Assembly (NCBI RefSeq): GCF_009914755.1
Contig: NC_060934.1
Source: the human T2T-CHM13v2.0 reference genome, Homo sapiens
Strand: one strand, 5' to 3'
DNA length: 64,000 nucleotides
Shown here piece by piece: positions 26,046 to 53,151 of the stretch. Both the position numbers and the translations under genes were made by a program. Numbering within the stretch: position 1 is the first letter of the stretch; every line of letters starts with the position of its first letter. The notes below the pieces were generated by a model that saw only the letters and a list, made by a program, of their open reading frames with translations, had not been told where the DNA came from and ran no database searches.

Positions 26046-26187
26046 TGCACATGCACACACACACATGCACAAACACATGTACACATGCACACATGCACAC
26101 GCACACAGACACGCACACACGCACACACACACATGCACACATACACGCATGCACACACGCACGCACACATATGCACACACGCACACA
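26046..26187. repeat. Degenerate (CA)n/(CACATG) microsatellite
   Basis: About 140 bp of alternating purine-pyrimidine sequence. Confidence 0.95.
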
Positions 26188-41577: not shown

Positions 41578-41977
<400 letters not shown>

Positions 41978-42010
41978 TCACCTCCACACAGCTCTGTCTG
42001 CATTTTGAGC

Positions 42011-42450
42011 AATGGCCACCAGAGGGCAGGAAGAACCAATCTATAAAGCACACAAGGGTTTCACCAACTTTGAAGTCCTCCGTTAGAAGGCAAGTTGTCC
42101 ACTAATATGTAGGAACGATTAATGGCCACCAGAGGGCAGGAAGAACCAATCTATAAAGCGCACAAGGGTTTCACCAACTTTGAAGTCCTCCGTTAGAAGG
42201 CAAGTTGTCCACTAATATGTAGGAACGATTAATGGCCACCAGAGGGCAGGAAGAACCAATCTATAAAGCGCACAAGGGTTTCACCAGCTTTGAAGTCCTC
42301 CGTTAGAAGGCAAGTTGTCCACTAATATGTAGGAACGATTAATGGCCACCAGAGGGCAGGAAGAACCAATCTATAAAGCGCACAAGGGTTTCACCAACTT
42401 TGAAGTCCTAACTTAGAAGGCAAGTTGTCCACTAACATGTAGGAACTATT
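42011..42450 (+). repeat. Minisatellite/VNTR, 4 x 110 bp, each unit with a CTCF core motif
   Basis: Units start at 42011, 42121, 42231 and 42341 (aatggccaccagagggcaggaagaaccaatctataaag...). Units 1-3 differ by 1-2 nt; unit 4 differs by about 5 nt in its 3' part. Confidence 0.97.
42013..42361 (+). promoter_or_regulatory. Four tandem forward-oriented CTCF motifs (TGGCCACCAGAGGGCAGGA)
   Basis: Motifs at 42013, 42123, 42233 and 42343 closely match the CTCF consensus TGGCCACCAGGGGGCGCTA. Binding is not shown by sequence alone. Confidence 0.75.
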
Positions 42451-42877
42451 TTTAATTATACCATTATTTTCCCTCAATTTTATTTATAAACTAATGAATT
42501 CACAAAATATTTCCAAAGCTCAAGTGAAGTACATCCTAATCAACTTGATTTACAATTTGTGATTTTTCTCTGAATCAATCTATAAATAATCAATAAGAAG
42601 ATAATTATTTAGAAAATGAGGCTCCGAAAAATATGTTGGCTTTACATTTTTTGCCTGTGCAAGTAAATATAAAAATGTCTTTTCTCACATTTCTTCCATT
42701 TATAAACCGTTTTTAAAAATCATAAATTAAGACATGTGTGTTTTAAAAGTCTCACAACATGCAGCATTTTAAAAATTGTCTTATGCTTTACTGCTCCCTC
42801 CCGTAGGTAATCACTGTTACATTTCTCATTTACTGCAAAATTCTCTGTGCATATGGAGCACATAGATGGATAGATAG

Positions 42878-43205
42878 ATGGGGTGTGTGTGTGTATATGA
42901 ATGTGTATGTGTCTTTGGGGTGAGTGTGTCTATGTGGGTGTATGTATGTGTGTCTATTTGTGTTTATTTGTGTCTCTGTGTATGTGTATGCATATTACAT
43001 ATGTGTATGCACGTGTGTGTATACAGTATATGTGTGTGTGTCTGTGTACTTGTGTCTGTGTATTTGTGTGTCTGTGAGTACATCTTTGTGTGTATGTCTA
43101 TGTGCCCATGTCTGTGTATTTGTATGTATGTATGTGTGTATTTACATATGTGTATGTTTGTATATGTATGCATATGTGTATATGTGTGTGTATGTATATA
43201 CAGTA
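42878..43205. repeat. Degenerate (TG)n/(TATG)n low-complexity tract
   Basis: About 330 bp TG/TA-rich. Confidence 0.92.
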
Positions 43206-43250
43206 TATTAAGTGTTTGAATGTATGTATCATATTTATCAAATTCCACGT

Positions 43251-52720: not shown

Positions 52721-53151
52721 GTGACGCGGTCGCGGGCAGGGAGGCGCGCCTGACCTAGGGGAGCGCGGGACTTGGGGGCGCCCGATGGGACCCAGGCCGG
52801 GGCTGGGGAGAAGTGCGGCGGCCTCCCCTCCGCCTGGCCGACGCCCGGGAAAGGCGCTGCTGAGGTGGCCGCCCACCGCCCACAAGCAGCCCGGCCCGGC
52901 CTTTCCTAAAACGGAGTCGGTGCTGCCCGCCGAGGCGCTCTCTGGGAGAAGCGGGAACCTCGGCAGCCAAGCCTCAGACTCTGGGGCTGCGGCCGCGGCG
53001 TTGGGCGGGGCTGCTCTGTGGAGAGGCGGAGCCCTTGAAGTTACTCAGAACTGGAGCGGGGATGCCGAGGGGAGGCCTTGGCGGCGCTGGACTCGGCCGG
53101 AACAGGGAACCTCGAAGCCTCCTCTCCAGCAAAGAGAGAAAGAAAAGTTGG

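What the first reader, a model, noticed from the sequence alone, without database searches (positions are those of the whole stretch)
42011..42450. A VNTR that multiplies a CTCF site: 4 x 110-bp units, each with a forward CTCF motif
Seen: four 110-bp units, each starting aa-TGGCCACCAGAGGGCAGGA. Units 1-3 differ by only 1-2 nt, which implies a very recent expansion. Established: this closely matches the CTCF core (TGGCCACCAGGGGGCGCTA), motif orientation sets loop direction, and tandem co-oriented sites strengthen boundaries. Inference: one ancestral CTCF site was amplified into a copy-number-tunable insulator or loop anchor about 10 kb upstream of AKR1E2, pointing toward that gene and, from memory, the AKR1C cluster beyond. 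Repeat length could then act as a dial on chromatin insulation. This is the best candidate for an undescribed system in the window.
Basis: partly seen in the sequence, partly recalled or inferred. Interest (0 to 1): 0.85.

Follow-up and report, generated by a model that had tools for sequence, protein, structure and literature searches.

The report
Four-copy minisatellite carrying a CTCF-type site
A 110-base stretch of unique DNA about 9 kb upstream of AKR1E2 has been duplicated head to tail into four copies, each with a strong same-direction match to the CTCF binding motif; it is a real and uncommon example of a kind of element that is already known, and whether CTCF binds it has not been shown here.

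Summary
Window 42011-42450 is an exact 4.0 x 110-bp tandem array. Each unit carries, on the + strand, a sequence that matches the recalled CTCF core consensus at 14 of 15 places, missing only the last. These are the only four such matches in the 64-kb window.

The unit and its 19-base core are unique to this locus in T2T-CHM13, so the array arose by local duplication and not from a transposon.

RefSeq already annotates the array as a 'NANOG hESC enhancer' and holds a 50-bp 'active region' at a unit junction. The locus therefore has experimental regulatory annotation already.

CTCF occupancy, looping, insulation and any copy-number effect could not be tested here. 'Very recent expansion' cannot be inferred from one or two differences. 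An unusually short projected RefSeq element hints that the array's length differs between assemblies.

The class is known. CTCF-core minisatellites exist elsewhere in this genome. Subtelomeric 61-mer arrays carry CTCF/cohesin peaks. The idea that VNTR length sets the number of CTCF sites is in print for HRNR.

Verdict: a new member of a known kind, of modest interest.

The parts
42011..42450 (+). Tandem array of four 110-bp units (42011-42120, 42121-42230, 42231-42340, 42341-42450). Unit 4, at the edge, is the most diverged.
   Evidence: TRF gives period 110, 4.0 copies, 97% matches, score 831. Unit differences are 1, 0, 1 and 5, and the flanks do not continue the period. The unit is found nowhere else in the genome.
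42016..42030 (+). CTCF-type core, unit 1. It matches 14 of 15 places of the recalled consensus; the miss is the last place.
42126..42140 (+). CTCF-type core, unit 2.
42236..42250 (+). CTCF-type core, unit 3.
42346..42360 (+). CTCF-type core, unit 4.
42118..42125 (+). Eight-base word made by the unit 1/2 junction, with a homeodomain-type TAAT core (motif recalled). The same word recurs at 42228 and 42338. It is absent at the left edge of the array, so a one-copy allele would lack it.
   Evidence: for positions; for the flank sequence
42006..42450 (.). RefSeq functional element 'NANOG hESC enhancer'. It coincides with the array, starting 5 bases before it and ending at the same base.
   Evidence: That it comes from the ChIP-STARR-seq study (PMC6084406, passages read) is my inference from the name.
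42090..42139 (.). RefSeq functional element 'active region_2923', 50 bp. It covers the tail of unit 1, the junction, and places 1-14 of the 15-place match of unit 2. The same 50 bases recur at 42200 and 42310, so its placement on the first junction is arbitrary.
   Evidence: That it comes from ATAC-STARR-seq in GM12878 (PMC9435738, passages read) is my inference from the name and the 50-bp bin size.

Best explanation
What it is. A unique, non-transposon 110-base segment held a strong CTCF-type site. It was duplicated head to tail into a four-unit minisatellite, giving four same-direction sites 110 bases apart. The duplication is shown; the rest is inferred.

How it most likely works.
- It acts as one clustered CTCF-binding element in open chromatin.
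- With all motifs on the + strand, it would stall cohesin arriving from the AKR1E2/AKR1C side. It would then serve as the left-hand anchor or border of that domain, facing the roughly 1-Mb stretch with no protein-coding gene between KLF6 and AKR1E2.
- Several sites mainly raise the chance that at least one is occupied at any moment. Such a gain saturates quickly. For illustration only, assume each site is occupied half the time: one to five sites then give about 0.50, 0.75, 0.88, 0.94 and 0.97. A change of one unit around four copies should therefore matter little.
- The core holds no CpG, so binding would not be directly switched off by methylation of the core.
- The episomal reporter activity recorded in RefSeq may come from other short motifs in the unit or at the junctions. 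It is compatible with CTCF binding.
For: Array and unit identity.

Motif quality:
- Each unit matches 14 of 15 consensus places and misses only the last.
- The three other 1-mismatch hits in 304 kb miss at internal places.

Motif rarity: in chr10:4,574,001-4,878,000 there are 8 hits with up to 1 mismatch, and 4 of them are in the array. The nearest full match is 34 kb downstream at 4,850,156.

Local origin: the unit (4 of 4 BLAST matches) and the 19-base core (4 of 4 pattern matches) occur only here.

Open chromatin, by inference: 'active region_2923' matches a data set whose 50-bp bins were cut only from accessibility peaks of GM12878.

Position: the array's two elements are the only RefSeq functional elements between 4,665,894 and 4,826,991. 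They lie 8.9 kb before the first protein-coding gene after KLF6.

Precedent:
- Subtelomeric 61-mer arrays of 2-7 copies are spanned by CTCF/cohesin ChIP peaks (PMC4032850, passages).
- Tandem CTCF sites act as insulators (PMC7087399, abstract).
Against: - No binding, cohesin, Hi-C or expression data could be consulted, so occupancy rests on the motif alone.
- In the ATAC-STARR-seq study, CTCF motifs were enriched in distal silent regions, whereas this bin is called active.
- The ChIP-STARR-seq paper's main text does not mention CTCF: 0 occurrences.
- No reverse-strand consensus hit lies between the array and 4,878,000, so no convergent partner was found in the part I could read.
- The consensus used is recalled and is not a scored matrix.
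- The four motifs are one event, and one CTCF-like match per 64 kb is not rare in itself (expected 0.34).
Confidence: 0.5

Rival explanations
1. The array is chiefly a multi-copy enhancer, as RefSeq labels it. Repeated short motifs in the unit bind activators and drive transcription, and the CTCF-like core is incidental or only helps keep the site open. The candidate motifs are an ETS-type GGAA word overlapping the 3' end of the core, CCAAT, a MYB-type word in units 1-3, and a homeodomain-type TAAT word born at each junction. All these motifs are recalled.
For: - Two reporter-based annotations fall on the array: 'NANOG hESC enhancer' at 42006-42450 and 'active region_2923' at 42090-42139.
- The hESC study called a region active from its most active plasmid, at a threshold checked against luciferase assays.
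- ETS motifs were among the most enriched in active ATAC-STARR regions.
Against: - The element carries the NANOG label only, without the H3K27ac or H3K4me1 labels that many neighbouring classes have.
- The active region is a single 50-bp bin, the smallest size called, at adjusted P < 0.1.
- Its sequence occurs three times, so read placement is ambiguous.
- The short words are 5-8 bases long and common by chance.
- Episomal activity need not reflect the chromosome.
Confidence: 0.25
2. The array is a neutral minisatellite with no role in the chromosome. A unique segment that happened to hold a CTCF-like word was duplicated by replication slippage or unequal exchange. The reporter calls are false positives or episome-only effects.
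For: - Only four copies; no coding or RNA signal.
- One consensus-like word per 64 kb is close to the chance expectation of 0.34.
- No paper found describes a function here.
- The unit decays at CpGs as unconstrained DNA does: unit 1 lost one CpG and unit 4 lost two of three.
Against: - The cores are identical in all four units, although unit 4 has 5 changes elsewhere.
- Two independent assays flagged the site.
- A match at all 14 informative places is rare locally: one other in 304 kb.
Confidence: 0.2
3. The array is an unannotated promoter. Each unit has a CCAAT word and a TATAAA word six bases apart, which could start transcription once per unit.
For: CCAAT lies at 42036, 42146, 42256 and 42366. 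TATAAA lies at 42042, 42152, 42262 and 42372.
Against: - RefSeq lists no transcript or CAGE cluster here.
- The two words are far closer together than in usual promoters (established knowledge).
- There is no CpG island: 1-3 CpGs per unit and 44-46% G+C.
Confidence: 0.05

Closest known systems
Subtelomeric 61-mer repeat arrays that bind CTCF and cohesin (TERRA promoter region)
   Same: These are short tandem arrays of a few copies: 2-4 at most chromosome ends and 7.3 at one internal site. Each unit has a CTCF core, and the arrays are spanned by CTCF/cohesin ChIP peaks (PMC4032850, passages). The same kind of array turned up in my genome pattern scans at chr9:150.39 Mb and chr18:250 kb.
   Different: The 61-mer arrays have a 61-bp unit, are G+C- and CpG-rich, occur as a multi-locus family at chromosome ends, and are tied to TERRA transcription. 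The array here has a 110-bp unit of 45% G+C, is single-locus, is interstitial next to a metabolic gene cluster, and has no shown binding.
HRNR coding VNTR proposed to add CTCF sites with length (Lu et al. 2023)
   Same: [quoted passage not shown]
   Different: The HRNR repeat is exonic, kilobases long and highly variable. Its case rests on population genotypes and expression data, which are lacking here.
Macrosatellite and large tandem CTCF arrays (DXZ4, ICCE, the 1q23.3 tRNA VNTR)
   Same: They are tandem units that each carry a CTCF motif or binding. They are copy-number variable and are proposed boundary or superloop anchors (search listing and abstract starts only: PMC3218863, PMC6125249, PMC4041453).
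   Different: Their units are 3-7 kb and their copy numbers are tens to about a hundred (abstract starts). Here the unit is 110 bp and there are four copies.
Clustered same-direction CTCF sites at domain borders (Pcdh, Igh, beta-globin)
   Same: Several co-oriented sites act together as directional insulators and balance contacts (PMC7087399, abstract).
   Different: From what I recall, not from the abstract, those sites are not near-identical head-to-tail copies of one short unit, as the four sites here are.

Membership tests
CTCF binding site | Match to the CTCF core motif at its informative places | tested here: met
   Each unit matches 14 of 15 places of the recalled IUPAC consensus and misses only the last. 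There are 4 hits against 0.34 expected in the window. Only one other full core occurs in 304 kb. No scored matrix such as JASPAR was available.
CTCF binding site | Occupancy by CTCF in cells (ChIP or footprint), usually together with cohesin | not testable with these tools
   No ChIP, CUT&RUN or footprint data can be reached. The only indirect sign is that the 50-bp RefSeq 'active region' fits a data set drawn from accessible chromatin.
VNTR (variable number tandem repeat) | Head-to-tail array of a unit of 7 bases or more | tested here: met
   4.0 x 110 bp, 97% matches.
VNTR (variable number tandem repeat) | Copy number differs among genomes | tested here: inconclusive
   Only one genome was readable. 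There is a hint. The RefSeq element on the array is 445 bp on CHM13, the second shortest of 3143 such elements on chr10. Their source floor is 500-502 bp, and only 6 of 3143 are under 495 bp. Of the other 5 short ones, 4 hold a tandem or homopolymer tract.
Insulator or domain border / loop anchor | Reduced contacts across the site, or enhancer blocking in an assay | not testable with these tools
   No contact maps or assays were available.
Insulator or domain border / loop anchor | A convergent (reverse-strand) partner motif downstream | tested here: inconclusive
   No reverse-strand hit lies between the array and chr10:4,878,000. The AKR1C side beyond that point could not be fetched.
Transposon-borne CTCF site | The unit or core recurs as dispersed copies in the genome | tested here: not met
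   The unit gives 4 of 4 matches inside the array, and so does the 19-base core. The array is not among RefSeq's masked repeats of 100 bases or more.
Macrosatellite CTCF arrays (DXZ4 type) | Kilobase-sized units in tens of copies | tested here: not met
   110-bp unit, 4 copies.
Enhancer (reporter-defined) | Drives reporter transcription | not tested
   Public annotation only: 'NANOG hESC enhancer' and 'active region_2923'.

The most novel reading that the evidence does not exclude
The array is a natural allelic series. Unit number sets the dose of forward CTCF sites (n). It also sets the dose of a junction-born homeodomain-type site (n-1) that a one-copy allele lacks. People with different unit numbers would then differ measurably in how sharply the AKR1E2/AKR1C domain is walled off from the KLF6-side desert, and so in expression of these steroid- and drug-metabolising genes. 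This would be a short, single-locus, non-subtelomeric minisatellite acting as a graded boundary. My genome scans found no other array with a native period over 100 bases and three or more full cores in the 95-215-base range.
Probability: 0.1. Interest if true: 0.6.

Novelty: new member of a known kind. Interest (0 to 1): 0.3.

Why it matters
If CTCF does occupy the array and unit number varies among people, the locus would be a small, clean natural test of how the dose of identical, equally spaced CTCF sites affects a domain border. It sits next to genes of steroid and drug metabolism (AKR1E2 and AKR1C1-4). Current work mostly asks this question with engineered insertions. If CTCF does not bind, the array is an ordinary minisatellite that two reporter screens happened to flag. 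It would then be a reminder that repeats complicate such screens, because the annotated 50-bp active region maps equally well to three places.

Tried and rejected
Transposon origin: rejected. The unit and the 19-base core occur only in the array, and the array is not masked as a repeat.

RNA gene: rejected. The Rfam scan of 41600-42900 at E <= 1 gave 6 matches. All lie at 41644-41954 in the neighbouring Alu, all are below their gathering scores, and none is in the array.

Coding repeat: rejected. The unit length is not a multiple of three. Only 3 ORFs of 30 aa or more overlap 41980-42480; all three start in the Alu and none runs past 42051.

Dating the expansion: abandoned. One or two differences per 110 bases, one of them a CpG change, give no usable date. 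No primate genome was available.

Convergent partner search: incomplete. I read 200 kb upstream and 40 kb beyond the window and scanned 304 kb.

Genome census of CTCF-core arrays: partial.
- Four gap ranges were run, covering periods of about 95-215 bases. They gave 61, 13, 52 and 17 matches against 0-1 in the controls.
- The matches fall in a handful of loci. Shorter and longer periods were not run.
- The tool warns that its counts are lower bounds and that closed regions are hidden.

Literature for this locus:
- AKR1E2 + VNTR: 0 papers.
- AKR1E2 + CTCF: 5 papers, 4 listed, none relevant by title.
- AKR1E2 + tandem repeat: 6 papers, none relevant by title.
- The 2024 VNTR map paper has no 'AKR1' in its main text.
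They may list this locus. They include the VNTR catalogues of PMC10234305 and PMC11701250 and the region tables of PMC6084406 and PMC9435738.

Linking the two RefSeq element names to their source papers is my inference from the names and sizes. The annotation file gives no reference.

Full report
1. THE OBSERVATION

The sequence at 42011-42450 is a clean tandem array.
- Tandem Repeats Finder reports period 110, 4.0 copies, 97% matches, no indels and score 831.
- Cut in register, the four units differ from their consensus at 1, 0, 1 and 5 positions. Units 1-3 differ from each other by 1-2 bases, and unit 4 differs from them by 5-6.
- Neither flank continues the period, so there are exactly four units.
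- It is the only complex long-period array in the window. At TRF score 150 or more, the whole 64 kb yields only this array and a CA-rich tract at 26048-26185.

The distance to the AKR1E2 start is 8.9-9.3 kb rather than 10 kb.

2. THE MOTIF

No scored CTCF matrix was available, so I used the 15-place IUPAC consensus that I recall from the literature.
- With up to one mismatch, it hits the 64-kb window four times. All four hits are in the array, all are on the + strand, and all miss only the last and least informative place. Dinucleotide-preserving shuffles expect 0.34 hits, and none of 100 reaches four.
- I then scanned 304 kb of contiguous sequence, chr10:4,574,001-4,878,000 (200 kb upstream, the window, and 40 kb beyond). 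There were eight hits, four of them in the array.
- The three other one-mismatch hits miss at internal places. The only full match lies at 4,850,156 on the + strand, inside AKR1E2.
- The array therefore holds the only good core between 4,685,808 and 4,850,156.
- The four sites are copies of one event. Statistically this is one good motif that happens to sit in the one minisatellite of the window, not four independent hits.
- The core holds no CpG. The three CpGs of the consensus unit lie elsewhere in the unit.

3. ORIGIN

- A BLAST search of the whole T2T-CHM13 genome with one unit returns four matches, all within the array, at 100, 99, 99 and 95% identity.
- The 19-base core string occurs four times in the genome, all here.
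- RefSeq's soft-masked repeats of 100 bases or more stop at the neighbouring Alu (41646-41975) and resume at 42935.

The unit is therefore unique DNA that was duplicated in place. It is not a piece of a dispersed element.

The differences fit ordinary decay. Unit 1 has lost one CpG. Unit 4, at the edge, has lost two of its three, one of them within a three-base change.

One or two differences in 110 bases cannot date the expansion. The count is too small, CpG changes are fast, and arrays can be homogenised by exchange between units. 'Very recent' is possible but is not shown. No primate genome could be consulted.

4. WHAT IS ALREADY ANNOTATED

The RefSeq functional-element track places two elements on the array.
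- 'NANOG hESC enhancer' at 42006-42450 is almost exactly the array.
- 'active region_2923' at 42090-42139 is 50 bases long. It covers the tail of unit 1, the junction, and places 1-14 of the 15-place match of unit 2.
- These are the only functional elements listed between chr10:4,665,894 and 4,826,991.

By their names and sizes, I infer the two source studies.
- The first comes from the ChIP-STARR-seq study of human embryonic stem cells. There a region's activity is that of its most active plasmid, and the 'active' threshold was set at 138 reads per plasmid (PMC6084406, passages).
- The second comes from ATAC-STARR-seq in GM12878. There accessibility peaks were cut into 50-bp bins and called at adjusted P < 0.1 (PMC9435738, passages).

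If that inference is right, the array lies in accessible chromatin of lymphoblastoid cells and was pulled down with NANOG antibody in stem cells.

Two cautions apply.
- The 50-base sequence occurs identically three times (42090, 42200, 42310), so its placement is arbitrary.
- In the ATAC-STARR study, CTCF motifs were enriched in distal silent regions, not active ones.

The ChIP-STARR paper's main text never mentions CTCF.

5. A HINT OF LENGTH VARIATION

- On chr10, RefSeq lists 3143 elements of the 'hESC enhancer' classes. Of these, 877 are 500-502 bases long, which looks like the floor of the source set.
- Only 29 are shorter than 500 bases and only 6 are shorter than 495.
- The one on this array, at 445 bases, is the second shortest.
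- An element that is too short on CHM13 suggests that CHM13 has fewer bases there than the assembly on which the element was defined.
- As a control I fetched the five other short elements. Four of the five contain a tandem or homopolymer tract. The shortest, at 360 bases, contains a 105-base-period array of 1.8 copies.
- The simplest reading is that the array differs by a unit between assemblies: 445 + 110 = 555, an ordinary size in that set.

This is circumstantial. It does not prove polymorphism, and the number of alleles is unknown.

6. SETTING

- The array lies 8.9 kb before AKR1E2, the first protein-coding gene after KLF6. About 1 Mb holding only lncRNA, miRNA and pseudogene annotations lies between those two genes.
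- AKR1C6P, AKR1C1, C2, C3, C8 and C4 follow from 4.87 to 5.22 Mb.
- By the usual convention (established knowledge), a + strand motif is the left-hand partner of a convergent pair.
- I found no reverse-strand consensus hit between the array and 4,878,000.

7. MECHANISM

My best explanation, at about even odds, is that the array is one clustered CTCF-binding element that faces the AKR1 side and helps close that domain off from the desert.
- Shown: the array, the motif quality, the common orientation, the local origin and the position.
- Inferred: occupancy, cohesin stalling, and any border.
- On spacing, 110 bases is too short for a nucleosome between two occupied neighbours. Occupied units would therefore form one continuous open stretch (inference from established nucleosome size).
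- On dosage, extra identical sites mostly raise the chance that at least one is occupied, and that gain saturates. With an assumed occupancy of one half per site, one to five sites give about 0.50, 0.75, 0.88, 0.94 and 0.97. If there is a 'dial', it should be nearly flat around four copies. This calculation is illustrative, not measured.

Rivals.
- A true multi-copy enhancer, about 0.25. The unit holds an ETS-type word overlapping the 3' end of the core, plus CCAAT, TATAAA, a MYB-type word in units 1-3, and a TAAT-type word created at each of the three junctions (positions; motifs recalled). All are short and common by chance.
- A neutral minisatellite with reporter false positives, about 0.2.
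- An unannotated promoter, about 0.05.

Nothing suggests an RNA gene or a coding repeat.

8. COMPARISON WITH WHAT IS KNOWN

I scanned the whole genome for two cores in the same direction. The gaps of 83-113, 113-143, 143-173 and 173-203 bases gave 61, 13, 52 and 17 matches. A reversed-pattern control gave 0-1.

The matches fall in a few loci:
- a 53-base-unit array at chr7:363 kb;
- 61-base-unit arrays near the ends of chr9 and chr18, with single matches on chr8 and chr19;
- a 74-base-unit array at chr2:114.40 Mb;
- repeats spread over chr14:100.2-101.1 Mb, with relatives on chr15 and chr16;
- three isolated pairs, on chr4, chr10 and chrX;
- this array.

CTCF-core minisatellites are therefore a small but real class in this genome. 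Within the range scanned, this array is the only one with a native period above 100 bases and three or more cores. The tool warns that its counts are lower bounds.

In print:
- CTCF and cohesin ChIP peaks span the subtelomeric 61-mer arrays, which have 2-4 copies at most ends and 7.3 at an internal site (PMC4032850, passages).
- Tandem CTCF sites act as insulators (PMC7087399, abstract).
- Large CTCF-bearing tandem arrays such as DXZ4, ICCE and the 1q23.3 tRNA repeat are described (titles and abstract starts).
There, predicted site number tracks length at r = 0.996 and tracks predicted folding change at r = -0.838 (PMC10234305, passages).

I found no paper on this particular array. AKR1E2 with VNTR gave 0 papers. 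AKR1E2 with CTCF gave 5, none relevant by title. AKR1E2 with tandem repeat gave 6, none relevant by title.

9. VERDICT

- Binding, looping, tunability and recency are untested.
- The claim of an undescribed system does not hold.
- I file the array as a new member of a known kind, CTCF-motif tandem arrays, already flagged by RefSeq as a regulatory element.
- Interest is modest, at 0.3. It would rise if long-read genotypes show several alleles and contact maps show a border here.

Noticed in passing
L026:2156-2170 (chr10:4,850,156-4,850,170, + strand; 12 kb beyond the window end): The only full 15 of 15 match to the recalled CTCF consensus in the 304 kb scanned. It lies inside AKR1E2, has the same direction as the array, and falls within the RefSeq element 'tiled region #4775; K562 Activating DNase matched' at 4,850,029-4,850,323.
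   Followed up: partly
window 42006-42450: The RefSeq 'NANOG hESC enhancer' here is 445 bases on CHM13. That is the second shortest of 3143 such elements on chr10, whose source floor is 500-502 bases. Four of the five other short ones hold a tandem or homopolymer tract. This hints that the array differs in length between assemblies.
   Followed up: partly
window 41646-41975: A + strand Alu with an A-rich tail ends 35 bases before the array. It accounts for all the weak Rfam matches (SRP and Alu-derived miRNA families, all below gathering score). There is no sign that it took part in forming the array.
   Followed up: partly
window 42883-43200: A long, impure GT/TG-rich microsatellite complex starts about 430 bases after the array. 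RefSeq masks it in part (42935-43105 and 43111-43211).
   Followed up: no
window 52991-53070: A RefSeq 'silent region_2078' of 80 bases lies just after AKR1E2 exon 2. It is the nearest other functional element to the array on the gene side.
   Followed up: no
G000:C7:363156-363856, G000:C2:114404255-114404638, G000:C9:150391638-150392378, G000:C18:250572-251249: These are other minisatellites of this genome in which every unit (53, 74 or about 61 bases) carries a full CTCF-type core in one direction. There are also related repeats scattered over chr14:100.2-101.1 Mb, chr15:19.08 Mb and chr16:32-35 Mb. I did not check which genes lie at the chr14, chr15 and chr16 sites.
   Followed up: partly
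L029:357-547 (chr10:133,197,265-133,197,455): A 105-base-period array of 1.8 copies lies inside the shortest projected 'H3K4me1 hESC enhancer' on chr10 (360 bases). It is probably another place where CHM13 and the source assembly differ in repeat copies.
   Followed up: no
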